This document shows, piece after piece, positions 1,988 to 63,930 of a DNA stretch of 64,000 nt. A program made the translations under genes and the position numbers. The notes beneath the pieces were generated by a model, which worked only from the letters and a program-made list of their open reading frames with translations, made no database searches and was not told where the DNA came from. This stretch comes from Protoeuglena noctilucae. Its lineage: Eukaryota. Location of the stretch: the NCBI GenBank assembly GCA_958009085.1, contig OY253671.1, forward strand, positions 620,001 through 684,000, given 5' to 3'. How positions within the stretch are numbered: position 1 is the first letter of the stretch; every line of letters begins with the position of its first letter.

Positions 1988-2902
1988 ATGGGCAAATACT
2001 TTAGCCGATTAAGAGGACCTCAGGTCACTCAGGATGACCGGGCCGTGCTCAAGGCGAGGAGGAACCGACGGGGCAAGCAGAAGCACGTCCTCTCGCTCGC
2101 TGGGCTGCGGATATTCGACCCCCGACCCTGCTCCTCGCAGCTGAAGGAGCAGAAGCGTCGGCTGGAGGGGGAGCGGACCCGGTGCGAGTCGGTCATCGAG
2201 CGGTATGACGAGGCCATCAAGACGCTGCTGGTGCAGGGGCGGAAGAAGGACGCGCTTTTCACCCTCAAGATGCGGAAGATGCACGAGAAGCAACTGGACA
2301 CTCTGATGAACTTCATCATGAAGATGGAGGGACTCCTCCTGGACGTGCAGGCGAGGGGAGGGGCGTATCCGAGCAGTGCCTCGTGACGAGGGACGTGTGG
2401 GAAGCTTTACGCACCCGTCCCCGCTGCGCGCTATCTTCGCAGGGCGCTCAGACCACTCAGAACGTGACGAACGCCATGAAGGAGGGCGCGCGGGTGATGA
2501 AGTCCATCATGGCGGAGGTCAAGGTCGAGGACGTGGAGCGAATCATGGAAGACACGCACGGTGCGAGCGGAGGGCGGCGGGAAGCTGTGTTTGGTCTCCT
2601 TGCATTACCTCCTGTCGCTCGTGGCAGCTGTGCCACCAAACGTGGGTTCACGCGTCGCCTGTGCAGAGGCGCGAGAGTGGATGCGGGAGGTCGCAGACCG
2701 GATGAACATCCAGGTGGACGCGGCGCAGGAGGAGCAGGTCGAGAAGGAGCTGGCAGAGATGGAGCGCAGCATGGCGGTGAAGGCGGAAGACCTGCCGTCC
2801 GTCCCAACCACCGCGCTCCCCAAGCAGGCCAACCGGGACAGAGAGGAGGCGCAGGAGAGGGCTCGGGATGCAGAGGCAGAAGCGGAGCTCGTGCCCGCAT
2901 AG
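1988..2902 (+). CDS. VPS20: ESCRT-III subunit VPS20/CHMP6 (Snf7 family), 4 exons
   Basis: MG N-terminus (myristoylation), VTQDDRAVLK|LKEQKRRL, KKDALFTLKMRK, VEDVERIMEDT, acidic tail with LPSVPT. Introns 2054-2140 (GC-AG), 2351-2442 (GC-AG) and 2561-2666. Confidence 0.92.
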
Positions 2903-3024
2903 AAGTGCATGCGCCTGTAGCCGGACACGACACCCTTCACTGCCGCCTAGGCCGCGCGCGTCACAGCCCCGATGCAGCGCAGGCGCCATCGCGGGCCAGC
3001 GAGCCCCGTCGCGCATCTCAAGTC

Positions 3025-7318: not shown

Positions 7319-7461
7319 GTCGCCTAGGCTAGGACTACCTTGTTTTCTTAGCTTGCGTTTCTATCGCTCTCTAGTATTTCCTCGCTCCCAAGTTCTCTTT
7401 GCACTGGCGGCGCAAAGGTGAAAGCATGTGCGTGCTTGACTATGCAGCTGCTAGGTCACCC

Positions 7462-16915: not shown

Positions 16916-19679
16916 ATGGCTCCTGAGCGTGCACCGAGGGGCTCCGGAGGTCGCCTGGGTCTCCTGGCAAAGCACGGATGGGACTTGGCCTTGCTGGTGG
17001 CGCTGTACACGATGCAGGGCATTCCCATGGGCTTGGCGCTCGGGTCTGTCCCCCTTTTGCTTCAGTCGCAGGGCGCATTTCACGGATCTGGTGAGCTTTT
17101 GCCGCGCCTCTTGCGTTCGGGTCGCCGATCTCTTTCGCCATAATCGGCTGTCCTGGCCCTCCGCGACGGCTGGCATCGGGGATAGCGCTGCTGCCCGACT
17201 TCCGGTGACTCCTCTGCGCCCAGGGTCTTTTCTCCATCGCCACGTACCCCTATACCCTCAAGCTCCTGTGGTCCCCCATTGTTGACACGCTCAGCTTTCC
17301 GGGGTTCGGCCGGCGGAAGTCCTGGATCGTCCCCGTGCAGCTCCTGGCCGCTGCGCTCCTCGTCGGCGCGGCCCCGACGGTGCAGCGACTCGGTGAGCAC
17401 CGATCGAGCGACCGCGGAGCGCGTGATTGCTCACCGCTTGCGTTTCCTCGACAGCGTCCCCCGCCCCCGCGCAGTGGACGCGGGTCACGGCTCCGTGGTG
17501 GCCCTCACCTCGCTCTTCACCGTCCTCATCTTCCTGGCGGCCACCCAAGACATCGCTGTCGACGGCTGGGCCATCGAGCTCCTCCGGGGCGGCAGCGCCG
17601 GCTTCGGCTCCACGTGCCAGACGCTGGGCATGGCGCTGGGATGGTTCCTCTCCTACACCGCCTTCCTCGCATTGAATGACCCGGAGTTCTGCAAGGCCTA
17701 CGTCAGCCTCTTCCTCTCCGAGTGCCCCGCGGTGAGTGGCCCAGCGCTGAGCAGGACCCGGCAGATGGTGGATGGCTTGTCGGCCATGTGAGCTGCGAGG
17801 GCCCGCATCGTGCCTGCAGGGCGGGATCGTTTCCATCCAGCAGTACATGGTCTACGCCGGCGCCTTGCTCGCGGCTGCCACGGTGCTCGTCGCCCTCTGG
17901 CCCGAGGAGCCTCGGGGTGCCGTGCCGGTCGAGGAGTCTAGCGGTGCCAGAGATGCAGACGGCAAGGACGCCCCCGCCACCCGGGGCCTGCGCGAGGCTT
18001 ACCAGGAGCTGTGGGAGGTCCTGCGCCTCCCGAACGTGCTGCGACTGGCCAAGCTGCTGCTCTTCTACAGGCAAGCGGCAGCGCAGGCACAGGCGCTGGC
18101 AAGGCGGGGGTGCCTGGTCGAACTCTTGCTGATGTTCAAGCTGTTGTGGGCCCGCAGGCTCCCCTTCCTGCCCACGGAGCTGGCATTCAGCCTAAAGCTG
18201 GTCGAGCGAGGCGTCAGCCGGGACTCCATCGCCTTCCTGTCGCTGTCCATGCTGCCCGTCGACCTGGGGGCCGCTGTGCTGGCAGGGAGCCTCTCGAGCC
18301 ACTACGGGCCGTCCCTGCCCTTCAGGCGAGCGACCGAGTCGGGCAGATAGAAGATGGACGGGGCTGGGCTTGCTGTCAATCGCCGGAGACCGTGAGCGGG
18401 ATCTAGACTTGCTCGCTCCGCGCCCGCAGGCTGGGCATGTGGCTGCGGTTCGCCACGGCTGCCTTCGCGGTGTCGGTCGTCTCTTTCGCGGCCAACAGCG
18501 TGAGGGGCACGTGGCTGCTCACGGCCCTCATTACCGTCAGCATGGCCGCCACGACGTGCGCCACGACGCTCATGTTCACCGCCCAAGGCACGCTGGTGAG
18601 CCCCGCAAGTCTCCGCCAGGTCAGTTTCGAACTCTTCTCAACGAACGTTCAAGAGCCATTTCCACGCAACAATGCACCTCTACCGCGCCGCAGTTCAGCA
18701 AAATCTCCGACCCCGAGATGGGCGGCGCGTACCTGACGCTCCTGAACACGATCGCCAACCTCGGCTACAGCGCCCCCAAGGTCATGATCTTCTACCTGAT
18801 GGACGTGGCGGCCGTCCGCGCCTGTGACGCAGGCTCGGGCTCGGGAGTGCTGGGCGCGGCAATGTCTGCAGTGGACCGCGTACTGGCTGCGCTGGGCTTA
18901 CAGGTGAGATCGTCGCGAGGTCTCTTGTTCATTTTCTGGCTGAGAAAAAGCATGTCTGACACAGGCTGTGGCACCTGTGCACCCTAGTGCGCAGCGTCTT
19001 ATCAGGTCTGCAACATCTATGCGCGCAGGGTTGGATGGAGACGCACCGGGCGTCCTGTCGGGAGCACGGGCTGCTGCTGGACGGCTTCTACGTGGTGTCG
19101 CTAACTTCCCTCCTCGTTGGGCTGGTCTTCGCCGGGACTCTCTCGCGTGAGTTCAACCGGGCATCCCAGCGGTCGATGTCATCCTGGCGGACCGTGAGGG
19201 CCCTGCGAGTCAGTGCGATAGCGCAGGACGGTGCGACGGGGAGCCTCGATGGCGCTGCTGGGGGTTTGGATGGGGATGGGGTCAGTGAGGGGGTCCCAAA
19301 GGACGGGGAGGACGGGGCCGGCGAGCGGGCGGGGCAGGGGCCGGAGGCGTCGGTTCGGGGAGAGGGAGCGGGCGAGGTCGCGGCGAGGGCGAACGGGGTG
19401 ACGAGGAGGGGGAGTGTCGAACACGCAGAGGCGGACCGGGTTGCCTGGCCTGCTGCTGCGAGCGGGGAGGTGGGGGGACGGGGCGGGGGTGCCGTGGTCG
19501 CTGTGAGGTCGCTGAATCGCGGGACCGCTGTTCCAGGCGCGGCGGGGGCGGACGCAGGGAGTGATTCGCACAGTGGCCAGGGCACGCCTAAGGGCCTGAC
19601 CACCCGCAAGTCGTGGGGCTGCGTGGACCGGCATCTGTCGCCCTTCGCCATCGCGCGATATCAAACGCAGGGGCGCTGA
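16916..19679 (+). CDS. SLC33A1: Acetyl-CoA transporter 1 (SLC33A1/ACATN, MFS)
   Basis: LYTMQGIPMGLALGSVP, YPYTLKLLWSPIVD, GRRKSWIVPVQ, AATQDIAVDGWA, FSKISDPEMGGAYLTLLNTIANLG, LDGFYV. Confidence 0.92.
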
Positions 19680-20258: not shown

Positions 20259-22739
20259 TCAGTCCCTGCAGCTCCCCTCCGTGGAGAGGGACCGCCGCCG
20301 AGGACAGCCCTGGGCCTCCAGGGACCGCCTCACAGTCTCCAGAGACCCTCTCTTGTGGATCGGGGGCTCCACGGGGGCGAAGCCTGGCATCCGAACAGCG
20401 GTGCCGAGCTCAGAGGCGCCCGGCGGCGTCCCCTCCACCGCACCGCCTGCCGTGCCCGAGGCGCTGCGAGCCCTGGCGCGCGCGTCGGTGTCCACCCGCT
20501 CCATGCGGGCCAGCTGCAGGGTGGCCTGCGCCGAGTACCTGCGTGGCGGCATCGGGCCTCCACCCGCGGGGCTCGGTGCGACGGCCGAGCTGCGCCTCGC
20601 CCTCTGCGGTTGGCCGGCACCTGCGGACACAGACACGGACATGGTTCAACCATCAGCGTGGCTTCCAACGTCGGCATGGCAGTGTCACCGGCGACTGAGG
20701 GCAGTGTCACCGGCGAGCCGCTCACCCTTCCCGAAGCCCAGCCACGTCGCCAGTTTCTGGAGCGGTGTTGGCAGCGATGGCGCCGGTGGCTTGGCGTCGT
20801 TCCGGGGAGGTGACTGGAGGGTCCCGAAACTGACATCGGGCTGGGTAGCCGCCGACTCGAGCCTGCGGAGTGCGAGGGGCAGATGAGGCTGGGCACGATG
20901 GGTGCTGTGGACTCGCTCTCTCCCACATGCAGAACAGCAAAGTCGGCTTGCCTGGAGCGGATGTCGTTGCCTGCGGATGTAGCCGTGGCCATGGCCACCG
21001 GCACCCGGCCCTGGGGTCTCGGGGTCGCCGGCGTTTCCGAGATCCGGCGAGACCGGGGTGACAGGCTTGCGGCGTGGTGTATGGGCCCCTTGCGCACGAA
21101 CTGAGTCAGGACCGCGAGATCCGGATTTCCTGGGAACTGCGGCTGGCAGGTCGCGAGCTCTGGCCTTGGGGGCCTGCCGCCTGGGACGTGCCCTGGGGCG
21201 GGGTCGAGCGGTGGAGGGTTGTGGTTAGAGCTGACAGGGCTGGCTCGCATGGGGCTGGGTAGGGCGTGCAGGCGCGCACCTGTCAGCAGATTCGACAGCA
21301 GCTGGTCCGCGCGGCCCAGGGCCTGCCACTTGAGGCCGTTGCCGATCGTGACCTTGCTGGACAGGGCCGCGAGGGCTGCGGAGCTGGCCTGTGTGGACCC
21401 CGAGGGGAGCTGGATGCTCAGGAGGCGCAAACAGTCCTCGCAGTGCGGTCGCAGCCACGGGTGGCTGATGAGGTCGAGGGCCGAGGGGCGCGCGGCGGGG
21501 TCCGACTGCAGCGCCAGATGCAGCCAGTTGCGCGCGGCGTCGCTCAGGGCGAGGTCGGGCGCGGGCCGCGCCGCCCCCTGCGCGATCGCCGCGCGGGTAA
21601 GCTCCGGCGTGTCGCGCGCGAAGGGCTGGATGCCCGTGATGCACTCGAACACGACGAGGCCCAGGGAAAAGACGTCCGTGGCGAGGCCATAGGGTTTCCG
21701 AGACCCCTCGCCCTCTTGCACGATCTCAGGCGCTGCGGGGGTCAAGGCATGAAGGAGGGGTCCTTTGGGGCAGTGGCTGCAACTGGGCTGTGTTGGATGC
21801 GACACCTCGTGCATACCAGCGCCCATCGCTGCGCGTCCCTCACCGAGGTACGGCAGAACTCCGACGCGCGCGTCGGCCCTCTCCACATTGCAGTCAACCG
21901 CCTTGGACAGGTCCGCGATGTGGAGCGCCCCATCGGAGCCGACACACACCGACTCGGGCCGCAGGTCCCGGTGCATGACCCCTGCGCCGTGCAGGACGGC
22001 CAAAGCGCAGGCCAGAGGCGCAGCCACCTCGCGGACCACGACGGCCTCCTCCGCCCTCCCGCCGCGCTCCCGCAGCCAATCCCGCATCGTCTTGGATCCG
22101 ACGTACTCGGTGCAGACGTGCACGCTCTCGCCGTCCTCCCACGCCATGTAGAAGGTGGCGATGTTGGGGCCCATGGAGCGCGCATGAATGGCGATCTCCC
22201 GCAGGACCTTGTACCGCCCGTACTCCCCCAGGCGGGATCTGGTATGGGACCGGAGCACGGCGAGGCGCCCCGACGCCCGGTGCTCCACCACGGCCACGGA
22301 GCAGGCGTCCGTGTCGTGGCCGTACAGTCGGGCGAAGTCATTGACCGAGTACAGCACCGCCCGCATGTCGGCAGGCTGCCTGGGCCCCGACACGGGGAGG
22401 TGCACGGAGAGGTACGCCTGACGCGCCGTGCCTTCGGGCCCCGTCGACGCGGCCGGCAGGGTAGGTAGCACAGTCAGCGCATTCATCCAGTCTCCCGACA
22501 CTCGGGATGTGCGGCACGGGGACGTGGCAACGCTGGTCGAGTACCGGGCCGTCGTCGGCCTGCGTCGCGCGACAGTCATTGTTGCGGCACAAGTCATGCA
22601 AAACGGTGCAACTCGCGTGCCGGCAACCCGGGAGACGCGGTGGGTGCGCACCTGGGTCCCGCTGAGATGAACGCAGAAGCAGCCCGCTGACCGTCGCTTG
22701 GGGAGCGTCCCAGCCCCAGTTCCCGACTTGCATCACCAT
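20259..22739 (-). CDS. Aurora-like Ser/Thr kinase-fold protein, probable pseudokinase
   Basis: KVLREIAIH, HRDLRPES, IADLS, GVLPYL|APEIV, DVFSLG and RPSA subdomain motifs at about 21450-22370. Both gene ends approximate. Confidence 0.8.
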
Positions 22740-31400: not shown

Positions 31401-31679
31401 ATGGTCTCACTCAGCCACCGCGGCGTGCAATCGCCCCTTCAGGCTCATGTGTGCGGCCGGGGTCGAGAGCAGTGCGCTGTGCTGGCCGTCTCCGCTGCGC
31501 GTCGTTACATCGCCGGCTCCGTCCTCGCTCGCAGGGCCGTCAAGGAGGGCGGTGCGGAGGTCCCGGCGCTCGACACGCGGGCCTCCCAGGGCAAGCTCTT
31601 CATCCCCAAACGCGACATGGTCTCCCACGGCGACGCCAACCTCCAGATCGACGCCTTCCTCGCCGCCATCCCCGGCTGA
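28468..31679 (+). CDS. SAC3/GANP/THP3-family protein (LENG8/SAC3A-like)
   Basis: [15 protein letters not shown]...[49 protein letters not shown]-terminal HGDANL. Confidence 0.92.
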
Positions 31680-38798: not shown

Positions 38799-40792
38799 CT
38801 AGAAGCCGTCGTCCTCCTCCAGCGCCTCGGCAAGCTCCTCCTCCGTCATAAGCGCGTGCTCCTCGGTCCCGTTGGCGCCCTTGCCCTTGGGCTCGAACCG
38901 CATGGCGCGCATCGCGTCGTTGTTCAGATCCAAGCAGAAGGAGATGCGCGCGTGGAAGGCGTGCTGCGACAGATAGCACAGGAGGGAGCATTATTGACTC
39001 CCACGTCCACCGACCTGAGCTGCTCGCCTGTCACCGCCTAAGCGCCACCGCCGCGACGCGTTACAGCCAGTCCACCACCTGCCCCTGCCTGGCCCGCCCA
39101 CCTGAGGCTCGTAGGTGGAGTAGATGTCCAGGACCTCGTTGCTGACGAGGCACCCGGCGTCGTGGTCGATGCTCACGTCCACGGACCCGTCCCGGATGGC
39201 TTTGGCGACCATGCACTCAATGTCGCGGCGGGACCCCTCCAGGCCCAGGCGCGCAGCCACGTCAGCCAGGGAGATGCGGGAGTAGGCCAGGGAGATGCGG
39301 CGGAGGCCGGCGCGGATGACGTTGTTGCGGAGACGGTCGATGAGGTTCGACGTACCGTCGGCCGCAAAGGCCGCCCCGTGCCGCTCCGACACCTCGCGGA
39401 ACTCCTTCAGCTTCCCACGGCGCACCACCTGGGTCACCGCCACGTACGGGGCCATGGCCGTCGCCATCTGAGGCTGCGGGCAGAGGCCACAGCGGCGCAC
39501 GGTCAGCCCCACAGCCGCATTCACGCTGCATGCGCCCCTCCCACGCGCGCTACCAAGCCCGCCAGGCCCTCGCCTGCATGAGCTCCGTGCGCTCTGGGAC
39601 CTCGCCCAGCAGCAGGCGCACGAGGGTGAGCCACTTGAGGGTGGTGACGCGGAAGCCACGGGCCACCGAGGGGGCCTTGCGGAGGGCCTGCTGGAGGCAG
39701 TCGCGCGCCTCGGTGTAGTTAAGCTGGATCGCGTGGATGCGGCCCATGTAGTGCAGGTGCCGGCAGAGCTGCTGCGTGGACCGCCCCACGTCTTGCTGCT
39801 GCGCCTGGGAGCGGAAGCGCTCTGCCAGGTCGTACTCTTTGTTCTGGAGGTAGTTGCGCAGGACCAGGTTCATGAGCGTCTCCTGCCCGATCTCGTCGTG
39901 CCGCAGCGTCGCCGTCCTGCATACAGAAGCGGGGTGGTTCTATTGCTGCATGGCCGGTCGCCCTGCCACAGCACGTGGCGCCGCCGGGCCCGAAAGACGC
40001 ACCTGTGCAGTTCGAGCAGCTTCGTGCGGACGCTGCGGAGCTGGCCCAGGCGCTCGTGCACCCAGCTGTAGTAGAAGTAGAGGCGCGCAGCCAGGACGTC
40101 CATCGAGCGACGGTTGAGCTCGGCGAGCCGCGCCACGGCCGCGTCGACGACCAGCAGCGCCTCCTGGTAGCGGCCGAGGTCGCAGAGCTTCATCACCGCG
40201 ACGAGGCACACGTAAGCCTCCGCCTCAGGCAGCGCCGTGGGCAGCGCGGCGTTGGGCTTCTCGTCCAGCTTGTCCTCCGCCGGGGCGTCTCCTGCGGGTT
40301 TCTCCGCGTCCGGCAGCATCTCCACGTCCACCACGGACACGAGCCCCGGCTCGGCGGCCGAGCGCTGCGCCGGGACGGCCTTGAGAGCCTCCATCGTCGG
40401 CCCTCGCAGCGGGCAGCCCTCCGCCAGGCACTCCGCGGCCACGGCCTGGATCTCCCCTGGCAAAATTTGCTTGCGCAGCCCAGCCGTCTGCCGCAGGACC
40501 CGGCCCATCAGCGCCCGCGTCTCCTTGGACTTGACCGCCCGCGTGAGCAGAACGACGCACGACTGCGGGGCAGCGAGGGGCTCCGCGGATCCCGCCTCGC
40601 CCTGGCGACGCGGCATGAGACACTCGCGACCTTCCAATCGCATCACACGCCGCTGCTGTGACTGCGCGAGCGCACCCGCAACACATCTTTGGGAAGCGCC
40701 TTGGCCTTCTCGCCCTCGCCCTTCTCCTCCTCCTTCTTCTTCGGCGCGGCCTGCTGGCCGTTCGCCTCCTTCATCTCAACGTCCTTGCTCAT
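38799..40792 (-). CDS. RPN3: 26S proteasome non-ATPase regulatory subunit 3 (RPN3/PSMD3)
   Basis: NRRSMDVLAARLYFYYS, GRIHAIQLNY, LLLGEVPER, PCI region RLRNNVIRAGLRRISLAYSRISL, YSTYEPQ|HAFHARISFCL. Confidence 0.97.
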
Positions 40793-44333: not shown

Positions 44334-46961
44334 TCAGGCTGCCATGTGGGCCGCCAGGCTCATGTGCCCGGCCTCGTCGCTCGGCCTCGGCCGCGCCAAC
44401 TCGCCCCACCCCGCCGGCACGCTCACGCGCCAGAATTGCGTGCCGTGCTCAGGTTCCAGCTGCATGCGGTCCCTACCCAGCCCCTCTCGGAAGGTGCCCA
44501 TGCCATGGAGATCCACTGCGCGCGCGAGCTGGCCCCCACGCGTCCCCACGACGCTCGCCTCGTCCACCGTCATCCGCCCCACCCCGACCCCACGGTGCGC
44601 GCCCCCATCGCCCCGCCCCGGCCACCCCCGCACAAACGCGTCTCCCGCCTGCCCGGCGCGGGCGCCCCCGTTGAAGACTCTGCCGACGCGCCCTGCCTCG
44701 TCGGCACCCCTCCATGCGTCCTGTTCGCCTGGGCCCGTCGCAGCTGCGAACGAAGCCACCTTCGCCTCACCCAGCCCCGGGGACCCCCGGGCCGCTCCGG
44801 CCAGGTCCTGCATGCTCGCGGAGGCCGTTCCCGGCCGACTGCTCAGGGCCGCGAGGCTGGGGCCCGACAGTGACCCCGCCAGGGACACCTCGCTGGCGCT
44901 GCGGGTCCGGACGAGGATGTCGACCCCGTCCACCATAATGCGGTCTGGGACGCCGCCCGCCGCTCCCGAGCTGGCCGCCAGGGGCGTGGCTCGCAGCTCC
45001 GCGTGCAGGCCGTCCTCCCTCCTCATGTCTCCCAGCAGCTGGAGGTAGCGCAGGTACAGAGGCGATGCGCCCCATGCGTCCAAGATGCCGTCCACTGCAC
45101 GTGTCGGGAGCATGGCGGGGCGTCACGCCGATCTGTCGCTGTGGCCCTTCCGAGCGGTCAAACCAAGTACAGGACCACCGTATGTATGTTCCTCGCCTTG
45201 GTCGCTGGTGTCGCGGATCTGGTCGGCCACGGAGCGCAAGTCGAGCGAGTCGCCGTCCGTGGTGACCCACGTGTAGACGGCGTCAGGAGGTTCCGGCTCC
45301 TGCGTGCGTGCCAGGAACGGACGTGAGTCGCGCCGCGGGCTGGGCACCACGCGCACGGCACCCCGCCTAGGCCAGCCTCACCGGGCCCCGCTTGACGATC
45401 GGGGCAAAGCCCCCCGCCACACGGCTCCACCCCTTCACTGCGTCCGGGTGGGGCCAGGCCCTCCACTGCGACCCTCCCCGGACCTCCGTCACGGCGCGCT
45501 TGTCAAACGACCTCATGACCACGGCGCTGAGCGACCCAGGCTCCTTGCCGTCCATGTGGCGCGCCAGCAGGTCGTCCAGGCCCATCCGCCCCGCCGTCCT
45601 GGCCCACTCCTCCATCGCCTGGCGCCTGCGTGCCTCCCGCTGCCCGTCCCTGGCGTCTACCTCCCCATGCGCCGCCACGTAGTGCGGGGGCATCTTGTGG
45701 AACGCGCTCTGACCGATGACGCGGCAGGAGGACGAGTCCGGCCTCGGCGCCTTCTTCTCGGTCCCGCCTTGAGGATCTTTGGGTCTGTGCGACACGCCTG
45801 GCCGTGCCGCAGCGTTCGCGGCCTGCAATGCCGCAAGCGAAGCTCTTGGCGTACTTGCCGGACAGTGGTTAGCATCCTCGCGCCGCCCCAGGTGCGCCCT
45901 CACCGGCCCTGCTGCACGCGAGGGTGTGTGTGACATCGGCGCCGACGGGGCCCCTGGTGCTCCCTTGCGGCCTCGACCCGCGGCACCCCCGCCCTGCATC
46001 GCTCGGGCCTCCCTGGCTGCGGCCGCCTTCTTCCTGCTTTCGGCGCGCTCCCGCCGTCGCCTCTCCATCGTCTGAGCCGCTGTCTCGTTGGCCTGTGCCT
46101 CTGCCTCCTGAATGGCACGGATCTCTGGCCTGCAGACACAACGTGGGTGTGACAGGTCCATGCAATGCGCCTGCTCCGCATCGACCGTGTCCCCACTACG
46201 TGGGCCTCGCCTCAGCGTCTCGTCGGCAGCCAGGCCCCAGCGCCAGGGCTCCGGATCACGAGCGGGGAGCTCGGCGAGGGCGGGATCGGAAGGTCCACGC
46301 CTGGACGGCGCTCTGGATGGACCGGCTGCGAAGGACGTCGAGGATCCCGGGCGGGCCACAGGGATCACGGAAGGACCCTCGTCCCTGCGAGCAACGACAC
46401 GGGATGCCGCGGATGGTCTCTTAAACCTGCGCCGTGTGTCGCAGCAACGGCACTGAGAGAGCGACAGCTGTACTCACTCCAAGGGACGCAGGAACCGCTC
46501 CGTCAGCTCCACGATCGTCGGCTTGGCGCCCCTAGAGAGCGATGCGGTCGCCTCTGCGACCAGGTCTGTGAGCGTCCCGAGCGACGCCGGCCATCGAAAG
46601 CCCAGCACGGTGTCTAGGGCCTCCATGAAGGCGTCCATTTTCCGTTCCCCCAGTCCCAGAGACTCCACGGATGCCGCGAGGGTCTCCCGGTCAATGCGTG
46701 CGACGCCGTGACCTGCAGAGCAGCAATGTGGCATATGATGAGCAGCACATCGATTGTAGCTCACTGTCCACTATCTGCGGAGCCACCAGTCACACCTGCG
46801 CCCTGCCACCATCGCGCCCGGTTCGCCTCGGTAGCATGGTAGAGCGTGGTGCGCAGGGCCTCCACGGCCCAGAGCTCTGAGACGAGAGCGACCTTCTTCG
46901 ACAATTGAGAAGATGACTCTCCCGTCGCGTCGCTGGGAAAGGCGACGCGCCGGGACGCCAT
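44334..46961 (-). CDS. Hypothetical multi-exon protein
   Basis: About six coding-like exons with splice-site consensus at their ends and a short coiled coil. No family recognised. Confidence 0.6.
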
Positions 46962-53400: not shown

Positions 53401-54807
53401 CCACGATCTCCCCGCCATGGAGCGCATGTCCCTCGACTGCCCCCGGGAAGCCGCCCCGGCGATGGATTTCGCCGAGCCTGTCTCGCCGGCGTTCTTTGGG
53501 CGAGCGGCCGCACTGCGTGCCTTCTCACATTGACTGCCGACCCTCCTGCGCTCCGCTGATCGTCCGCGCCCGCTCCGCGCAGGATGGCGCCGACCTCGGT
53601 GGCCCAGAGCGCGCCCCCGGTGGCCCCCGAGGCCCTGAGCCCGCCGGCCCCTGCGATCGACTTGGACGTGACGGGCCGGCACAGCCGCGAGAGGTCCTGG
53701 ATGGGGCAGATGCAGCGCGCGCGGCAGGCGACGACCGACCGCAGCGCTCCCTTCGCGGAGGCCCCCGCCTTCCAGCCCTTCGCCTTCGTCGCCCCCCCGG
53801 CCGCGCCCGACGCGGCCCTGCGCCGCCATGCCGTCGCCCGCCGCTCCTCCAAGTCCACCATCGACTCGCCGTCGAGCGCCTCCGAGGTGACCAGTCCTTC
53901 GCGGCTGAGGGCGTGGGCCAAGCGCCGTGCGTCCAGGCGTGCCTGGGCCACACACTGGGTGTCAGTCGCTTAGTGCTTGCACTGTGCCGCGTCCGCAGGA
54001 GGACAGGGATGACGGGCCGCGAGGGGGCATCTCCCGGGCGCTGTTCCGGGGATCGTCCTTCGCCCGGCCGACTGAAGACGCGGGTGCCCAGGGCGTGAAT
54101 GTGGAGGTGGCGCGGATGGCGCCGCTGGCGGACGCTGCCCCTGGGAGGGAGGAGGCGTTGCCCGCGCTGGCGGGGCGCCGCGTGCCGGTCTCGGAGGCCT
54201 CTCGGCGCGTCGCGCTCACCTCCGGCAGCGACGGCGTGCTCCTCACCCCGGCGGACAGCCCGCGCTCGGCTGCCGAGTCGCCGGGCGCTTCGAGGGACGG
54301 CGGCGGGGCGTCGTCGCCGTCCTTGGCACGCATGCCGGCCATCGCACCGAGGAGCCGCGTGCACAAGCCGGCCTCCGACTCGCCGCTCAAGTCGGCACAC
54401 CGGGACCGGCCCCGCACGCTGTCGCGCTCCCGCACGGCCACCGCCAAGGTGCTGGCGGAGGTGGCCGGGTGGATCCCGGAGGACGCGCCTTCCCCCGGAG
54501 CCACAACGGGGTTCGTCCCTACGCCCCAGTTCGGCAAGGTGACCCCCCATGGCAGCCTGGGGCCAGCGCGCTCCGGTCGGACGGGTCAGGGAGCCAGCAA
54601 GGCTACCGGGTGGTGCCCGGCAAGCGTTTGCATATGGCGGACATCCTTCCTGAGGTCCCCGCCCGCCCCGCGCGCCCGCAGACGCCCAGCCGCCGGTCCA
54701 TCTCCCTGCATGAGATGGCGCCGACGATGCCGTCGGGCACGCCGAGGAGCAGCACGGAGGACCAGGCCATGTGCGACGAGCGGAGGACCAGCGAGCAGTC
54801 ACTCTGA
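50430..54807 (+). CDS. WEE1: Wee1/Myt1-family protein kinase
   Basis: YAVK, HPNVVSYYRGWQE...IQMEYC, HLDVKPEN, KLGDFG and the family-typical EEGDGHYVAPE. SP/TP-rich N-terminus and long C-terminal tail. Gene ends approximate. Confidence 0.88.
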
Positions 54808-56953: not shown

Positions 56954-59730
56954 ATGGCGGCCGAAAATGTGCGAGTGGTGATCTGCGAGGATGCCCTGGA
57001 CAACCTGCTTGGCCTGGGATTGGGATCCCAGCAAGAAGTGCGCGGATGGGTGCTGGGCCATCAGCTGGGGGACTCCACGCACGTCGCCTGCGCGCTAGTC
57101 CCCTCCGTGGAGGGGGAGCGCGACGTCTTGGGCGACGTCCTCCGGGCTCTGTCGCTGGTGCCGCCCGGCATCGACTGCATCGGCGCTTTCTATGCTCTGC
57201 GCAAGGATGGCGGTCGCAAGGAGGGAAGCGCGGGGACAGAGGACCCCTTGACCGCCCTGGGCCAGGCGAGAGAGGCCCTCAGCATCGACATGCTGAGCTC
57301 TGACGCGGCCCGATTGCCTGCTTCGACGGGGGAGGAGGCCTCGCAGTGCCGGCGCTTCCAGCAGGCGCTGGCGTCGATGGGATGCAGGCGAGAGGCGTGG
57401 CGCAAGAGGGCGTGCGGTGCGGCGCGTCATGCCTGGCTGATGGCATGGCTCCACGCCCGCGCAGGGACGCCCGCCGCCCGCTGCTTTTGCACCTGGAGGG
57501 ACACGTGGCACCCTCGGACGGGCGCCCCGCCGAAGTCTCCGCCCGGGCCTACCTGGCAAACGTGCTGTCGGGGACACTGTCGGAAATCGCCAACCGGGTC
57601 GAGTGCCTACCAGCCCCGCGCATCTCCGACCTGCTCCGCCAATCGGGACTGGTCCTCTGCCGCGCCCGGGACTCCTGGGAAGTCTCGTTGCGACACCGGG
57701 ACAGTCGCAGTGTGTGCGCGGCCGTGGGGCGGTGTGGCGTGTGCTGCACGGCTCGAGCCCGCCCGCGAGGCTGGGTGGAGTGGCTGGGATCGTTGCTCTG
57801 GCCCCTGCCGTCACCGAGCATGGCCTTTGAGGATCCCGACGGGGCTGCAGACGCCGGCCTAGCAGACGGGCTGCGGTTGCGGCACTGGGGGGTGACGGTC
57901 GCAGAGTGGGGCGAGGGTGTGGTGCTGGGGTCTGTCCTAGACACCGCGGGCGAGCAGGGATCTACAGTTGGCAGCGCTTCTGCAGGGGTGGGGCCCTGGC
58001 CGGTGGAAATTGAGGCGGCGTGGGGAGGTGAACCCGGCACCTCGTCGGCTGATGGGGAGGGCAGCAAGTCTGGGGCGACGCGGGTGGTCTGCGAGGGCGA
58101 CTTGATGTTCTTCCTGCCGAGGGACGCGGGGCCGGCGGAGGGACGGTCGGCTCTGTGTGCTGCACAAAGGCGCAGGGGAGTGACCGTCTGCCGGGCGCTG
58201 CGACCGGCGACGTGGGAGGTGGGGACCCTGATGCAGGTGCAGACTTTGGCCTTCCAACCCGTCAGCCTCCCCTCCCCCGTCTCGGCCGCGTTCGTGCTCC
58301 GAGACGACGAGGAGGTACCAGACCCAAACAGCGGTGCCCAGACGGAGGGAACCATCGAGTCGCAAGCCTCGGCTGGGCGCCCGAGGGACGCGGCCCCGGT
58401 CACGCTGCCCAGGGTGGTCACGAGGGCGCTGCTGGGCGACCTAGACGAGTCGCAGCTGGCGGAGCAGAGGCGCAACGTTCATGCGGTGCTGGGGCTGCCC
58501 ACGTCGCGGCCCCTCTTCCTCGCCGGGCAGAGCTGGGACGTCGCGCGCGTGCGAGCGTGGGCGCGCGGGGAGGGGCCGGCGGGCGCGCGGGCGGAGGCGA
58601 GGGAGTGCTTTGCCATTGCCGGATGCTGGGACAGCGCAGGCGCGGCCGACGGGAGGTGGGGGGACCTGTGGGAGGAGCTGGACGCGTGGCGGGAGGCGGG
58701 GAGTATTAAACACCTCCGCAGCCTCCACGCCCGGGCGCCGGGGCTGCGGAGCCCACTCCCCGACACCTCTGTGCGTGCGTGCGTCCGCGGCGACTGGGAG
58801 TTATGGCACTACGGTCAGGGAGGCTCGCAGGACCGCGGGTGGGGTTGCGCGTACCGCAGCTTGCAGACCATCGCGTCGTGGTTCGTCGCCCAGGGTCTGG
58901 TTTGCCGGCCGGTCCCAATCATCCGAGAGATCCAGGCGAGAGCCGTTGCCCTCTGATACTTGGAACGTGCTCGTGGCGTGAGAGTGCACAAGCGATTCTG
59001 ATTTGGACTCCACGAGACTGCCTGGCTTACCGCATTGGCCAAGCGGTCTAACCAGCGCATTGCTCCGCAGGAGGCGCTGGTGGAGGTGGGCGACAAGGAG
59101 CAGTTATTCGTGGGCAGCCAGTCGTGGATTGGTGCTGTGGAGTTGGGGTTCGCGCTCGACCATCTCCTGGGCGTCACGGGGCGCATCGTGCACGTCCGCA
59201 GCGGCCTGGACATCCCAGCCCACGCGGCAGAACTGGCGGAGCATTTCCGAGTCCACGGCAGCCCTGTCATGGGTGAGGCTACGCTGCCCACGCGGCCCAC
59301 GCGCTGCATCGCCGACCACCTGGCGGATGCGGCAAGGCCAGCCGAGGTTGCATTACCAAGGTTGCTTTGCACTGCCGCGCGCAGTGGGTGGAGGGGTGCT
59401 GGCGTACACGATCCTCGGAGTGGAGCACGATCCGGCGAGCGGGGATTGCGCTTTGCTGGTGGCGGACCCTCACTACACGGGGCCTGACGTGGAGGACAAG
59501 GCGAGGATGGGAGGGAGGCACAGAGAGCCCTGTTGAGCGGTGACTGAACTACGACTCTACGTGTGTCATTACCACTGACGCTGTCGTCGCCTGGTCGGGC
59601 TTTGCAGGTCTTGGCCGGCCGTTGGGTGGCGTGGAAGCGGCCGACGGACAAGTCCGCGAGCGGGGGCGACCTTTTCAAGCCCAGCGCATTCTACAATCTA
59701 CTCCTGCCGCAAGTCCCCAAGGGCCCTTGA
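56954..59730 (+). CDS. UFSP2: UFM1-specific protease 2 (peptidase C78)
   Basis: HYGQGGSQDRGWGCAYRSLQT, FVGSQSWIG, GGGVLAYTILGV, DPHYTG and FYNLLLPQ, with a long N-terminal extension as in UFSP2. Confidence 0.95.
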
Positions 59731-59795
59731 ACACCTCAGCCGCTCTGCCACTCACACACCTGCGCCTCACTCTGCCACCCCGTGGCGCCCCTGGC

Positions 59796-62700
59796 TCATG
59801 CTTCGGTCGGCCGCCGTTCCTGGCCAAAGCGGTCCCGCTGGGACGAGGGCATCCCCTGGCGCTTCGGCGGGGGCAGCGGGCAGTTGCTGGGCATCTGGCG
59901 CTCTAAGTGGACCCAGTGGGACACCTCTCCGGTCCTCATCTCGTGCAGCCGCTCCTGGCGATGGCGTTTCCTGCGTAGGAAACGGACGCCCATTGGGTCA
60001 GTCGTGACGCAGCCACCGCTCTCTTCAGCTAGTGAAACGGCCATGCTGACAGCAGCTCGGCGGTACTCAAAACCGCAGACCCTGCGTTCGGTAGCGGCGC
60101 GGCACCCCTGCACTCTCGGCGCCCACCGCACCGACAGTGGGCAACGCAGCTCACCGCATCGCGTCCGCATCGTTGAACGCCCTCCGCGCGGCGTCGTCCT
60201 TCTGCTCCATGGCCTTGTGCTGCGCCTCGATGGCCTGCTTGCGGAGATGCTCCCGGCGGATGATGGGCGGGAGGTCGGAGAAGTCGCGCTCCTGGGCGTC
60301 GAATGGGATGTCACTGTGGGTCTCGAACAGGCGAGTCCACCAGGACTTGGAGTGGTCGTTCGGGCTCACGTACAGCTCTGCGAGGAGACCATGGGCTCAA
60401 CAGCTCACGTGCTCACAGCACGTGGCGCTCTCCATATGCAGCGAGGCGCGACCTGATGCAGTGCTGCCCGAACACCGCAGGTGCAGGGGCGCGCATGCAA
60501 AGCACCTGCGTTCGTCTTCTCGAGGAACAGCACGAGCCCGTCTGGGCCCTCTCCGCCGCCATAGTCCCACGTGCTCTGCACGCGGTTGATGCCTCGGTGC
60601 AGCTCGCCTTCCAGCCACACCTCGCCCGTGGTGGCGTGGCTGACCTTGACGCTACGCGGGCCGAGCTCCACGCGGATGTCGCGGCCTCGGAGCCCCGAGG
60701 GCACCCGCAGAGCCATCACGCGCACCTGCGAGGGCGGCCTCCTCACTCTGCACCCCACAGCACGATGCATGCCCAGCGCCTGTCCCGCGCCAGAGAGCCT
60801 CCAAATCGACCCTCACACACGTTGCCGACTGCCTGACTGCACCCGACACCCGGGCAGACATCACCCCTGAACCTACGAAAGCGCCTGCACCCGCTATGCA
60901 CCTCTGAGGCCGACTGGCGCCACCGCACGGACCGGTCGGCGACCTCCACCCACACCTCGTTGCCCTCCCGCTCCCGGATGTCATAGTACACTCTCGCCAT
61001 GGCCACCCCGCCCGTCTGCTTCCTCTCGGCTGTGCGGCCATGGGCATCAACCAGGCGGTAGATGCGGTGGGGCATGTCAATCTCCTTCTTGGGCCGAGTG
61101 GGCTCGCGCTCGCCGGCCCCGGACGTCCCGGTGGGGTCCTGGGCCCGAGGAGCGATGCGATGAGGCTGCAGGAGGTGGCTGAGGTCCTGCCAGGTCACCT
61201 GCAAGGACCAACACGCTGGGCCTTTACGAGGTTTACGAGGTGAGCGTGAGGTGACCCTTGAGCTTAGGGACCTTGGCAGGTGCAGCGGATGGGTGCTGTC
61301 CGTATCAGTGTTGCACATCGCAGCCCTCGCCTCAGAGCGGTCGTTGCAGGGCTCCCCGAGGATGCCGACAATTTCGTCAAGCAGGCTGGCGTCCTGGCCC
61401 AGCACACCCCGCACCCCGCAGGTGCCAGCGGCCTCCGTCAGAGCAGCCGACACAGCGCGACTGTCAGGCCCGCTAATGAGCGAGCACTGCGGAAGCGGCG
61501 AGCGACGCTTGTGCGGGGCTGCAAGCCACCGCATGATTGCAGCACGAACCTTGCCTGCCGGCCTGCGCAGTCAGCAATCATGCATCACCCGCAGGCTCAC
61601 CAGGCTGACCACGAGCACAGGCTTGCCATCCGTGGCGTCCCTCGTCACGCGAGCTCCCTCGATCGACACTTGCTGCAGCGGCACCCCCGCATACGCCGCC
61701 ACTGCCTCTCGCATCGCCTCCCGCGGCCGCGACCCCAGCTGAGCCGCGGAGGCACCCGGGAACGCCACGCGCACGCAGAGCTTGCACAGCGCCGCGCGCT
61801 TGGCGGGAGAGACCTCCGCTTGAGTGGACGCCCGGACACCGCTGCCCCCGTCGACCCCACCGCCCCCGATGGCCGATGCCGAGGGGCTCTCGGCCTCTGC
61901 CTTGCTGCGGCCCTTCCGGCCCCCGCTGGTCTCCTCGCCCGCCGACCCCAACGGAGGGCTGGCGCACTCCCCGTACCTGTGGGTGTCCTCGCTGCCCACG
62001 TCGCTCCCTGAGCCCCTCCTCTCCGCCTTCCTTTCCCGGGCAGTCCCCCGGCGCTCGTGAACGCCCTCCGCCTCCTCTGCGCTCTGCCTCTCGAGCAGCG
62101 ACAGCGCCCCCAGGTGCTCCAGGACAGCTGGGTCGACGTTGGCCGGCAGGCGTGGGCCGACGCCAGGCATCGACGACATCCCCAGGGGCCCATAGACAGT
62201 GTCCAGCACCGACTGCAGTTCTCCCTGACTCAGCTGGGCCCCGGCGTCCTGGAGCATGCGGGCCCACTCGCTGTGGTCAGGGTCGATGTCAGTGGCCCGT
62301 GTCAGGCACCGCACGGCCTCCCGAGGGTCGCAGTCCTCGTGGCCCGCCTCCGCAAGACAGGCCTTTCCGCACAGAGCCCACGCCTCGCCCAGCAGCGCCG
62401 TCTGCCTCTCCCTCTGCGGGCATGGGCCGGCAGCAGCCCAGAGCGTCGCACCACACGCGTCGGGACGGTCGTCCGGCTGACCCGCCCTGCGCTGCCTGAG
62501 AGACAGCCGAGTCTCGCGCACACCTGCTCTCGGCTCCCGGACGCCGTCGCGCGTTGGCTCGAGTGCACGGGGCCCTGCATTCCCTCAGCAGTGCCCCCGC
62601 TCCTCTCAGGGCCCCTCGCCTCCCGACCCTCGGCGCGACTGAGCACGCTCTCGACCGCCTGTCTGGCATGCTCCCGCGCCTGTAAGAAACACTTGGCGCC

Positions 62701-63930
62701 GCAGTGCGCGTGGCCCAGCTCCACCAGGGCCTCCTCAGTCGACACGCCTGACAGCAGGTACCGACTCAGGCGCGCGTGGTACTCCAGGTCCGCAGCCTGC
62801 ACGGCGGAGGCCAAAACGTGCTGCCTGAGCGGTGTCAGCTCTGCAATGCGCCGCATCCGATCCGCCTGCCAAAGCCGAGAGTCCCCTATGCGGCCGGCAG
62901 CGTCACTTAACACCCCGCACAGCCTCGCCTTCCCGTCTGCTTCTGACATCTCCCCCGACAGGACCTTATCCTTGACCACGTCCTTCAACCGGCGGTTCTC
63001 CCGCATGACGTGCTGCGTCAGTCCCTCCACCAACTCCTCATCCGTCGCGACCTCCACCCTGCAACCATGGCACGACCAGTGACTGGTCATCGCAAGCTAA
63101 AAAGGCTCCGGCCGTCTCGACTGACCTGGTGATAACCACGGTGCGTCTCAGCGAGTGCCACCACCCTTACTCACCGGACAGGGACCGTGAGCCCCGTGGC
63201 CTGCCCCGCGACCATCGCCTCCTCCGACAACGCCAGCACCTCCCTCGACACCTCCTCCTGCGTCATCTTCCGCACCGCCTGCTTGAGCTGGAGCTCCGTT
63301 TGCTTCCTGCAGGAGCAAGCAAGCGTTGCTCCGGCACCTGCGTCACCCCCTACACGTCACAGCAGCCTCCTAGGTGCTGGCGGCTTTGGCGCGACTCCCT
63401 CGATGTCCGCACAGTGTCTCGCCTGGACGCATCGTCTGGAGCGAGCCGGTGGCTGACGCCGTAGTGCCGCGCGGCCTTGCCAAACTCCTTGAGGGCCACG
63501 TAAGCGGTCGCCGCGCGGTAGTGCGGCTTGTCCCACGCCGGCAAGAATTCCGCGGCTTCCAGAGCATCCTGGAGAGCCCGGGACGCCTCGCCGCACGAGC
63601 ATAGCGCGAGGGAGCGATTGCTCAAGAGGCGCCCTCGCATGTCACGGCTCTCCACCATCCCGAGCGCCTCCGTGTACCTGTGAGGCGCTCGAGCTCGGAG
63701 GATGTCACTTTGGTATAATGATGTATCTGTGCGCGTCATCGAGGCTCCTTGGCCGCGCACCTGGCCACCGCCCCGCGGTAGTTCCCGCGCTTCATGTCCT
63801 CGTTCCCCCGGTTGCGCAAGTGCTCCACGCGCATGTCCAACAGCTTCATTGACCGCGAAGCCTCGACACATGGCTTCACCGCCTCGGGGACAAGGATTCC
63901 CCGCCTCTGGACGGTGACCCGGCCCTCCAT
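59796..63930 (-). CDS. TPR-repeat plus CS (p23/NudC-like) domain putative co-chaperone
   Basis: TPR motifs LRNRGNE...YTEAL...LLSNRSLA...WDKPHYRAA. CS domain WRQSASE|VRV...LEGELHRGI...STW...LEKTN...WWTRLF followed by DFSDLP. Start codon approximate. Confidence 0.8.

What the first reader, a model, noticed from the sequence alone, without database searches (positions are those of the whole stretch)
2054..63422. Unusually high frequency of GC-AG introns across the window
Seen: correct splicing calls for GC donors at 2054, 2351 (VPS20), 18071, 18326 (SLC33A1), 23151 (XPF), 27437 (DapF), 31386 (SAC3-like), 34644, 37397 (TSNAXIP1-like), 39573 (RPN3), 43049, 44055 (DDX55), 46210 (hypothetical), 58936, 59501 (UFSP2) and 63422 (TPR-CS). 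That is 16 of roughly 120 introns by my manual estimate, about one in eight. They share a tight consensus AG|GCRAG (XPF has CG|GCGAGT), and many rejoin conserved protein sequence in the right phase. Established: GC-AG is typically about 1% of introns in model eukaryotes. Inference: this lineage has relaxed recognition of the +2 position (a variant U1/U6 snRNA or U1-C), or strong GC pressure tolerated when exonic AG and +4/+5 AG are optimal.
Basis: partly seen in the sequence, partly recalled or inferred. Interest (0 to 1): 0.75.

Follow-up and report, generated by a model that had tools for sequence, protein, structure and literature searches.

The report
Many GC-AG introns in green alga
This GC-rich marine green-algal DNA really does splice roughly one intron in six from a GC instead of the usual GT start, a habit already known from other GC-rich algae, so it matters mostly for correct gene annotation.

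Summary
All 16 coordinates carry a G-C dinucleotide in an AG|GCRAG-type context. Metatranscriptome contigs show 15 splice junctions in 27-47 kb; 3 are GC-AG, at the claimed 27437, 31386 and 39573, each in three runs of one study. That rate is very unlikely if the true rate were 2% (P=0.003).

- **RNA arithmetic** fits 43049 and 44055.
- **Homology or Pfam collinearity** supports 2054, 2351, 18071 and 58936; 59501 and 23151 get weaker support.
- **My own gene finder alone** supports 18326, 34644, 37397 and 63422.
- **Unresolved:** 46210.

The gene finder calls about 127 introns, 20-25 with GC donors even when GC is heavily penalised.

The motif itself is not over-represented: 41 copies against 36±5.5 expected. 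The evidence therefore lies in its use as a donor, not in its count.

These look like ordinary U2-type GC-AG introns, tolerated under GC pressure because the rest of the donor is near-perfect. The same pattern is published for Emiliania (~60%), pelagophytes (~14-17%) and GC-rich chlorophyte annotations (up to 8.5%). I rate it a new member of a known kind, of modest interest. The genome-wide rate and the snRNAs could not be tested.

The parts
2054..2140 (+). GC-AG intron 1 of the VPS20/CHMP6-like gene (87 nt, in frame, no stop)
   Evidence: HMM built from 4 homologs: spliced 155.3 bits against 138.1 retained, best of 58 donor/acceptor alternatives. Homologs place the post-intron residue at their positions 23-26. 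My gene finders missed it.
2351..2442 (+). GC-AG intron 2 of the VPS20-like gene
   Evidence: Snf7 profile reaches 74 before the intron and resumes at 77 after it. Top of 45 alternatives; the best GT alternative scores 4.5 bits lower. Predicted at every GC penalty.
18071..18157 (+). GC-AG intron in the SLC33A1/Acatn gene (87 nt, in frame, no stop)
   Evidence: The upstream part matches Acatn profile 195-289 and the downstream part 294-329. The human chain shows about 43 fewer residues here. My gene finders did not predict it. The intron-encoded peptide can also mimic profile positions 286-292.
18326..18429 (+). GC-AG intron in the SLC33A1 gene
   Evidence: Ab initio at every GC penalty. Read-through hits a stop after 8 codons and there is no credible GT alternative. 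The downstream exon has no Pfam or PDB match.
23151..23329 (+). GC-AG intron in the XPF/UVH1 gene (donor CG|GCGAGT)
   Evidence: Ab initio at every GC penalty. The joined N-terminus aligns to the XPF HMM from position 9. The homology margin over alternatives is under 1 bit.
27329..27437 (-). GC-AG intron in the DapF gene
   Evidence: RNA contig junction in X9, X11 and X12.
31386..31534 (+). GC-AG intron in the SAC3/GANP-like gene
   Evidence: RNA contig junction in X9, X11 and X12. Only the +3 register gives GY..AG, and it reads GC..AG.
34493..34644 (-). Predicted GC-AG intron in an unnamed gene (32799-34779)
   Evidence: Ab initio at every GC penalty. Donor flank score 6.6; the best in-frame GT alternative scores -7.4. 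No RNA cover and no family hit.
37290..37397 (-). Predicted GC-AG intron in gene 34872-38405
   Evidence: Ab initio: version 1 predicts it at g>=0.05 but not at g=0.01, version 2 at every g. No RNA cover.
39474..39573 (-). GC-AG intron in the RPN3/PSMD3 gene
   Evidence: RNA contig junction in X9, X11 and X12. An intronless relative (L001) is collinear across the junction.
43049..43144 (+). GC-AG intron in the DDX55/SPB4 gene
   Evidence: Ab initio. The RNA contig length needs exactly 269 nt removed, which equals 88+96+85. The homolog HMM does not discriminate here.
44055..44165 (+). GC-AG intron near the DDX55 3' end
   Evidence: Ab initio. X9 bin depth 5.88 at contig depth 9.61 gives 408 covered bases, as the model predicts. 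The HMM slightly prefers other boundaries, by up to 2.6 bits.
46130..46210 (-). Candidate GC-AG intron (81 nt) in the 5' part of a hypothetical gene
   Evidence: Donor flank score 4.9 and acceptor score 5.2. Neither gene finder used this donor; version 2 joins the same acceptor to a GT donor at 46477. Coding signal here is weak. Unverified.
58936..59070 (+). GC-AG intron in the UFSP2 gene
   Evidence: Peptidase_C78 profile reaches 60 before the intron and resumes at 62 after it. Predicted at every GC penalty.
59501..59607 (+). GC-AG intron before the last UFSP2 exon
   Evidence: The upstream exon matches UfSP2 chain residues 412-445. Read-through hits a stop after 11 codons, and the C-terminal exon lies in another frame. 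A weak in-frame GT at 59489 (flank score -4.9) cannot be excluded without RNA.
63307..63422 (-). Predicted GC-AG intron in the TPR/CS-domain gene
   Evidence: Ab initio at every GC penalty. Donor flank score 5.6; the best GT alternative scores -8.6.
20863..20951 (-).
   Evidence: Predicted at g=0.01 by both gene finders. Donor cag|GCAAGC.
45095..45196 (-). Additional predicted GC-AG intron
   Evidence: Predicted at g=0.01. Donor aag|GCGAGG.
53500..53582 (+). Additional predicted GC-AG intron (kinase-containing gene)
   Evidence: Predicted at g=0.01. Donor tgg|GCGAGC.
57388..57464 (+). Additional predicted GC-AG intron (UFSP2 gene, N-terminal part)
   Evidence: Predicted at g=0.01. Donor cag|GCGAGA.
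61199..61330 (-). Additional predicted GC-AG intron (TPR/CS gene)
   Evidence: Predicted at g=0.01. Donor gag|GCGAGG.

Best explanation
The window comes from a GC-rich (68%), intron-dense nuclear genome of a marine green alga. About one intron in six to eight is an ordinary U2-type GC-AG intron.

The likely mechanism has three steps.
1. Strong pressure towards G and C keeps turning the T at donor position +2 into C. Whether that pressure is mutational or biased gene conversion is not known.
2. The change survives only where the rest of the 5' splice site pairs almost perfectly with U1 and U6 snRNA: exonic AG at -2/-1 and RAG at +3 to +5.
3. The single C-A mismatch at +2 is then tolerated by an unaltered major spliceosome.

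Acceptors stay AG.

Shown here: the GC donors exist in the DNA, at least three are spliced in RNA, several more rejoin conserved protein, and GC donors have the stronger flanks.

Inferred: the cause (GC pressure), the spliceosome involved, and that the rate holds genome-wide.
For: **RNA.** 3 of the 15 RNA junctions shown are GC-AG, each in three runs. P(>=3 of 15) is 0.003 at a true rate of 2%; the 95% interval is 4-48%.

**DNA.** Six DNA or undetermined runs hold 100% of the sampled 31-mers of 37000-46900, a stretch that covers five claimed donors.

**Gene finders.** Two self-trained versions, seeded with the 15 RNA introns, give GC donors as follows.

| Version | g=0.15 | g=0.05 | g=0.01 |
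|---|---|---|---|
| 1 | 28 of 126 | 24 of 126 | 18 of 124 |
| 2 | 25 of 127 | 23 of 127 | 20 of 127 |

Here g is the prior share of GC donors. Both recover 13 of the 16 claimed sites.

**Homology and profile collinearity.** These support 2054, 2351, 18071 and 58936. An intronless relative is collinear across 39573.

**Compensation.** The full AG|GYRAG consensus occurs in 20 of 26 GC donors against 12 of 104 GT donors. Claimed GC donors have flank scores of 3.6-6.6, against a median of 3.7 for all predicted donors. The best in-frame GT alternatives score <=0.2.

**Composition.** 67.9% GC overall, GC3 about 0.9, introns about 67% GC.

**Precedent.** Emiliania huxleyi has about 60% GC donors, which its authors attribute to 65% genome GC (PMC4028052, passages). 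Aureococcus has 14-17% and Pelagomonas about 14%, likewise attributed to GC content (bioRxiv 10.1101/2024.10.30.620910, one passage). Published green-algal annotations reach 8.5%.
Against: - Only 3 of the 16 sites are proven at junction level. 15 further RNA joints were not shown to me.
- The AGGCRAG motif is no commoner than chance, 41 against 36±5.5 expected, so some sites supported only ab initio may be false.
- The GC-versus-GT consensus comparison is partly circular, because the gene finder penalises GC donors and keeps only strong ones. In the RNA-proven set the contrast is 3 of 3 against 4 of 12, which is not significant.
- Homolog HMMs do not discriminate 23151, 43049 or 44055.
- My gene finders missed three claimed in-frame introns and one or more RNA-proven introns, so the denominator is approximate.
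- GC pressure as the cause is an inference from correlation across lineages. Chlorella variabilis (67% GC) is annotated with only 0.7% GC-AG, though that may reflect GT-only gene calling.
- One 64-kb window may not represent the whole genome.
Confidence: 0.75

Rival explanations
1. The lineage has a changed 5' splice-site recognition apparatus (variant U1 or U6 snRNA pairing region, U1-C, or Prp8/U5 contacts) that relaxes the reading of position +2. GC donors are then accepted as a matter of course.
For: The share is far above the 1.5% median of 121 plant annotations. Nothing in the window speaks directly for this rival.
Against: GT remains the majority donor: 12 of 15 RNA junctions and about 80% of predicted introns. 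GC donors are restricted to near-perfect flanks, which is what an unaltered U1 would need. Unrelated GC-rich algae show the same pattern, so a lineage-specific change is not required. No snRNA gene lies in the window and no genome is held, so the rival is untested rather than refuted.
Confidence: 0.08
2. The excess is largely an artefact. Chance AGGCRAG motifs in GC-rich DNA were read as donors, and the real genome-wide GC-AG rate is ordinary, with a few true cases happening to fall in this window.
For: The motif count is at chance level, 41 against 36±5.5. 5 of the 16 sites rest on ab initio prediction or less.
Against: 3 of 15 RNA junctions are GC-AG (P=0.003 at a 2% rate). Four more sites are supported by independent homology or profile collinearity. 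Motif copies lie 27 on the sense strand and 10 on the antisense strand of gene models. Read-through hits a stop within 4-29 codons at 7 of the 16 sites, and there is no credible GT alternative.
Confidence: 0.07
3. A subset, the short in-frame stop-free introns 2054-2140, 18071-18157 and 46130-46210, are facultatively retained ('exitron'-like), giving two protein forms, and the weak GC donor serves regulation.
For: All three have lengths that are multiples of three (87, 87 and 81 nt) and no stop. Both gene finders prefer to read them through. The E. huxleyi paper links GC donors with frequent intron retention (PMC4028052, passage).
Against: By composition, about one intron in three has a length divisible by three, and about half of 29-codon stretches lack a stop at this GC content (my estimate). 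So 3 of 16 is what chance gives. For VPS20 the retained form scores 17 bits worse against homologs. I have no RNA data over these three sites.
Confidence: 0.1

Closest known systems
GC-AG-rich introns of the haptophyte Emiliania (Gephyrocapsa) huxleyi
   Same: A GC-rich algal genome (65%) in which GC donors are common while acceptors stay AG. The authors attribute this to GC content. Gene callers that use only GT mispredict genes (PMC4028052, passages).
   Different: There GC is the majority donor (about 56-65%). Here GT remains the majority and GC is about 13-20%. The lineage is different (haptophyte against green alga).
Pelagophytes Aureococcus anophagefferens and Pelagomonas calceolata
   Same: A very similar share (about 14-17% and about 14% predicted GC-AG) in GC-rich marine picoalgae, again attributed to GC content. 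The low-GC relative Aureoumbra has 0.32% (bioRxiv 10.1101/2024.10.30.620910, one passage).
   Different: Those genomes are intron-poor (0.1-0.9 introns per gene). This window has about 2 introns per kb. They are stramenopiles, not green algae.
GC-rich chlorophyte annotations in Pucker & Brockington 2018 (Ostreococcus tauri, Micractinium conductrix, Micromonas pusilla, Chlorella sorokiniana)
   Same: The same broad lineage. These four have the highest GC-AG shares of 121 plant and algal annotations: 8.5, 7.0, 5.8 and 5.7%, against a median of 1.5% (supplementary table rows).
   Different: The share in this window is about twice as high. The paper's text, in the passages I read, does not single these algae out.
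Ordinary GC-AG introns of animals and land plants (about 1%)
   Same: U2-type introns, with GC donors carrying a stronger consensus at the other donor positions. This compensation is recalled from the older splice-site literature, not checked in a call.
   Different: The frequency here is ten or more times higher.

Membership tests
U2-type GC-AG introns | Intron begins with GC and ends with AG at the junction actually used in RNA | tested here: met
   Three junctions (27437, 31386, 39573) in three RNA runs, with no GT-AG register possible. The other 13 rest on indirect or predictive evidence.
U2-type GC-AG introns | Strong remaining 5' splice-site consensus (AG|GCRAG) compensating for the +2 mismatch | tested here: met
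   15 of 16 claimed sites have AG|GCRAG. 20 of 26 GC donors against 12 of 104 GT donors carry the full consensus (partly circular). In the RNA-proven set it is 3 of 3 against 4 of 12.
U2-type GC-AG introns | Not U12-type: no RTATCCTT-like donor box | tested here: met
   All 16 donors read GCGAG or GCAAG. The U12 donor box is recalled, not taken from a call. Chlorophytes are reported to lack minor introns and minor snRNAs (PMC11347168, passages).
U2-type GC-AG introns | Removed by the major spliceosome with standard U1/U6 pairing | not testable with these tools
   No snRNA gene in the window and no genome held.
GC-rich algae with raised GC-AG share | High genomic GC content | tested here: met
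   67.9% GC over 64 kb, with GC3 about 0.9 in confirmed exons. This covers the window only.
GC-rich algae with raised GC-AG share | GC-AG share well above 1-2% across the genome | tested here: inconclusive
   Within the window: 3 of 15 RNA junctions and 20-25 of 127 predicted introns. Genome-wide testing is not possible.
GC-rich algae with raised GC-AG share | Acceptors remain canonical AG | tested here: met
   15 of 15 RNA junctions end in AG.
Introner elements (repeated, transposon-like introns) | Introns share sequence with one another | tested here: not met
   All-against-all blastn of 130 introns gave only 6 hits. All were trivial: overlapping models, or the LRR repeat region.

The most novel reading that the evidence does not exclude
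This marine green alga carries the highest GC-AG share yet seen in the green lineage (about 15-20% genome-wide, twice the top published annotation). It does so because its 5' splice-site reading has itself shifted, through a lineage-specific change in U1/U6 snRNA, U1-C or Prp8, rather than only through passive tolerance.
Probability: 0.08. Interest if true: 0.6.

Novelty: new member of a known kind. Interest (0 to 1): 0.3.

Why it matters
**Annotation.** Gene callers that allow only GT donors will mis-join or truncate a large share of genes in this genome. At about 6 introns per gene and about 17% GC donors, most multi-intron genes contain at least one. The public protein collection already holds unspliced ORF calls from this contig that read through introns.

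**Biology.** The window adds a green-algal case to the haptophyte and pelagophyte examples. It strengthens the link between genome GC content and +2 T-to-C donors, and offers an intron-dense system for measuring how much flank consensus is needed to tolerate a GC donor.

It does not open a new question.

Tried and rejected
- **Whole genome.** None is held, so there are no genome-wide donor counts and no snRNA search.
- **Rfam on the window.** 0 matches.
- **ORF listing.** 308 ORFs of at least 120 aa. It is useless in 68% GC DNA.
- **Word search for SLC33A1 homologs.** Using the 168-aa exon with 'longer' lengths, nothing was found. This spent one of three searches.
- **PDB searches.**
  - The VPS20 exon hit only a weak coiled-coil match to a dynein regulatory protein.
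  - SLC33A1 part A, exon 18431-18595 and the last UFSP2 exon gave no hit.
- **Homolog HMM scans of alternative junctions.** They were decisive for the GT junctions (6 of 6 model junctions ranked top in DDX55; 4 of 4 GT junctions in XPF) and for VPS20. They were not decisive for 23151, 43049, 44055 or the predicted 23394. For 23394 homology prefers another acceptor, so I do not count that donor.
- **Orthologous-intron comparison.** The single metagenome scan returned 2 loci. L001 is an intronless RPN3 from a 58% GC relative, and L002 is a 25-residue fragment. No orthologous intron could be compared.
- **Run X10.** It is labelled RNA but gave 0 joints, and its contigs run through RNA-proven introns. 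I did not use it as evidence for retention.
- **Parts of 33-38 kb.** They had almost no RNA cover, so I draw nothing from that.
- **Introner hypothesis.** Rejected.
- **Literature.** Searches for GC-AG together with Chlorophyta, Chlamydomonas, green alga, or prasinophyte names found no paper that states a GC-AG share for a marine prasinophyte or core chlorophyte. Two prasinophyte genome papers contain none of the words splice, donor or non-canonical.

Full report
**What the window is.**
The 64-kb window is 67.9% GC. Exons confirmed by RNA have about 0.9 GC at third codon positions and about 0.45 at second positions. It is densely packed with short introns of about 80-220 nt.

Pfam hits on exon translations identify these genes:
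- VPS20/Snf7
- an acetyl-CoA transporter (Acatn)
- XPF/ERCC4
- DapF
- a SAC3/GANP-like protein
- RPN3/PSMD3
- DDX55/SPB4
- UFSP2 (Peptidase_C78)
- a TPR/CS protein
- kinases, an LRR protein and a CAAD-domain protein

The best named relatives of XPF and DDX55 are core chlorophytes (Pedinophyceae sp., Micractinium, Chlorella, Coccomyxa) at only 47-57% identity. I read it as a green alga without a close named relative in that collection. The DNA is held by marine metagenome runs and by runs of a coded organism, and four metatranscriptome runs hold parts of it. No whole genome is held.

**Check of the sequence claim.**
All 16 coordinates have G-C in a donor-like context, ten on the + strand and six on the - strand. 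Fifteen read AG|GCRAG, and 23151 reads CG|GCGAGT, as stated.

The motif itself is no evidence. AGGCRAG occurs 41 times on the two strands, against 36.0±5.5 in second-order Markov simulations. What counts is whether these copies are used as donors.

**RNA evidence.**
I laid contigs of four metatranscriptome runs on 27001-47000. Fifteen joints were listed and fifteen more were not shown. After checking every equivalent register, twelve are GT-AG and three are GC-AG:
- 27329-27437 on the minus strand (DapF)
- 31386-31534 on the plus strand (SAC3-like)
- 39474-39573 on the minus strand (RPN3)

Each was seen in X9, X11 and X12, all from one study. These are three of the eight donors claimed in that stretch.

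Three of fifteen has probability 0.003 under a 2% rate and 0.0004 under 1%; the 95% interval is 4-48%. X10 gave no joints, and its contigs run through proven introns, so it tells nothing.

Two more claims fit the RNA tables arithmetically.
- **43049.** A 2389-nt X9 contig has 418 nt between genome positions 42666 and 43354. That equals my model with introns 42669-42756, 43049-43144 and 43272-43356, which remove 269 nt in all. With the two neighbours fixed, only two GY-AG introns of the needed 96 nt keep the frame open, and both have GC donors. If all three introns are left free, 46 combinations fit.
- **44055.** The X9 depth of 5.88 in bin 43676-44342, at contig depth 9.61, means 408 covered bases. 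That is exactly the model exons with both the 148-nt GT intron and the 111-nt GC intron removed. The same arithmetic reproduces the RPN3 bin (472 bases, 87.2). Neighbouring DDX55 bins carry extra contigs and do not fit as cleanly.

**An independent gene model.**
I wrote a small hidden-Markov gene finder. It has coding states, intron phases, shadow states for the opposite strand, and donor and acceptor weight matrices. I seeded it with the 15 RNA introns and let it train itself. A second version uses three-periodic Markov chains and an intron model.

| Version | RNA introns recovered (of 15) | g=0.15 | g=0.05 | g=0.01 |
|---|---|---|---|---|
| 1 | 14 | 28 of 126 | 24 of 126 | 18 of 124 |
| 2 | 12-13 | 25 of 127 | 23 of 127 | 20 of 127 |

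The last three columns give GC donors out of all predicted introns; g is the prior share of GC donors.

Both versions recover 13 of the 16 claimed donors. Version 1 loses 37397 at the harshest penalty. Both also add others with good consensus: 20951, 45196, 53500, 57388, 61330 and 62928.

The three misses (2054, 18071, 46210) are short introns whose length is a multiple of three and which contain no stop. The models prefer to read these through.

At the claimed sites the donor flank scores are 3.6-6.6, against a median of 3.7 for all predicted donors. The best in-frame GT alternative using the same acceptor scores <=0.2.

**Homology evidence.**
- **VPS20.** An HMM from four full-length homologs scores the form spliced at 2054-2140 at 155.3 bits against 138.1 for retention. 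It is the best of 58 alternatives, and the match runs end to end. The junction 2351-2442 is the best of 45, with the best GT alternative at 150.8 bits. Pfam Snf7 positions run 74|77 across it.
- **Transporter.** The part before 18071 matches Acatn positions 195-289 and the part after 18157 matches 294-329. Against the solved human protein, the unspliced exon has about 43 surplus residues there. A caveat: the intron-encoded peptide can itself imitate positions 286-292.
- **UFSP2.** Peptidase_C78 positions run 60|62 across 58936. The exon before 59501 matches the solved UfSP2 chain at 412-445. Read-through stops after 11 codons, and the last exon lies in another frame. A weak GT 12 nt upstream cannot be excluded.
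- **RPN3.** An intronless relative from a metagenome (L001, 58% GC) is collinear across the 39573 junction.
- **XPF.** The join at 23151 restores an N-terminal block that aligns to the family HMM. Alternatives score within 1 bit.
- **DDX55.** The model aligns end to end (837.6 bits), and all six GT junctions rank first. At the two GC junctions other boundaries score up to 4.2 and 2.6 bits higher, so homology does not settle them.
- **18326, 34644, 37397, 63422.** These have only the ab initio support.
- **46210.** It has a strong donor and a strong acceptor at 46130, but it lies in weakly coding sequence. My second model joins that acceptor to another donor.

**Frequency.**
The denominator of about 125-130 is approximate, because the models miss some introns.

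**How it most likely works.**
These introns look like ordinary U2-type introns.
- Their lengths match the GT introns (median 108 against 110 nt).
- Their composition matches too (both about 67% GC).
- They share no sequence with each other, so they are not introners.
- None has a U12-like donor.

GC donors carry the full AG|GYRAG consensus far more often than GT donors: 20 of 26 against 12 of 104. That comparison is partly circular, because the finder penalises GC donors. In the RNA-proven set it is 3 of 3 against 4 of 12.

The simplest reading is that pressure towards G and C converts +2 T to C, and that the change is tolerated only where the remaining pairing to U1 and U6 is near perfect. 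That cause is inferred, not shown. The alternative of an altered U1, U6 or U1-C could not be examined, and nothing requires it.

**Comparison with what is known.**
- Emiliania huxleyi uses GC in about 56-65% of donors, with AG acceptors. Its authors ascribe this to 65% GC and note that GT-only gene models fail (PMC4028052; abstract and passages).
- A preprint reports about 14-17% predicted GC-AG in Aureococcus, about 14% in Pelagomonas, and 0.32% in the low-GC Aureoumbra (one passage).
- From the supplementary splice-site table of Pucker and Brockington 2018 I computed shares for 121 plant and algal annotations. The median is 1.5%. The four highest are GC-rich green algae: Ostreococcus tauri 8.5%, Micractinium conductrix 7.0%, Micromonas pusilla 5.8% and Chlorella sorokiniana 5.7%.
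- Other GC-rich algae are annotated with almost none (Chlorella variabilis 0.7%). That may reflect how those genes were called.
- My searches found no paper giving a GC-AG share for a marine prasinophyte or for this kind of alga.

**Verdict.**
The phenomenon is a known one, seen here in a further lineage at about twice the highest share in published green-algal annotations.

Its main value is practical: gene calling for this genome must allow GC donors. Interest is modest. The genome-wide rate, the snRNAs and 13 of the 16 junctions still need direct RNA evidence.

Noticed in passing
window 24431-26620 (+) and 1988-2386 (+): The public protein collection holds unspliced, prokaryote-style ORF calls from this contig. 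P0001 (730 aa) maps without gaps to 24431-26620. P0210 (132 aa) contains the residues encoded by the 2054-2140 intron. Such entries are intron read-through artefacts.
   Followed up: partly
window 2054-2140, 18071-18157, 46130-46210: Three of the claimed GC-AG introns are 87, 87 and 81 nt long, in frame and free of stops. ORF callers and both of my gene finders read them through. By my rough estimate this fraction is about what chance gives at this GC content, but retention would yield an intact longer protein.
   Followed up: partly
window 35672-36338: Run X10 shows a mean word depth of 148.5 in this one bin, while the other three RNA runs show 0 and the neighbouring bins are near 0. It may be a contig from another organism or a repeat.
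   Followed up: no
window 27001-47000, run X10: X10 is labelled as a metatranscriptome but gave no spliced joints. Its contigs run through introns that the other runs splice (for example 30421-30791), so it holds DNA or unspliced RNA of this organism.
   Followed up: no
L001:1918-3390: A metagenome contig (58% GC) encodes an RPN3 relative, with 36-59% identity per exon. It has no introns at any of the four positions where the window's gene is interrupted, so it comes from an intron-poor relative.
   Followed up: partly
window 23330-23505 (+): The XPF exon structure here is uncertain. My model uses a weak GC donor (tct|GCGACC, 23394), while the homolog HMM prefers an acceptor at 23471 by about 14 bits. 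I do not count this donor.
   Followed up: partly
window 7120-12708 (-): A large leucine-rich-repeat gene has the highest coding score in the window. Predicted introns at its 3' end (7141-7897) differ between model runs and include repeat-related similarity between 7465-7670 and 7777-7872.
   Followed up: no
window 45822-45903 (-): An X9 RNA contig piece ends at 45821, and another piece boundary lies at 45381. These match a GT intron 45822-45903 and the predicted intron 45300-45381. The hypothetical gene therefore extends further 5' than my first model had it.
   Followed up: partly
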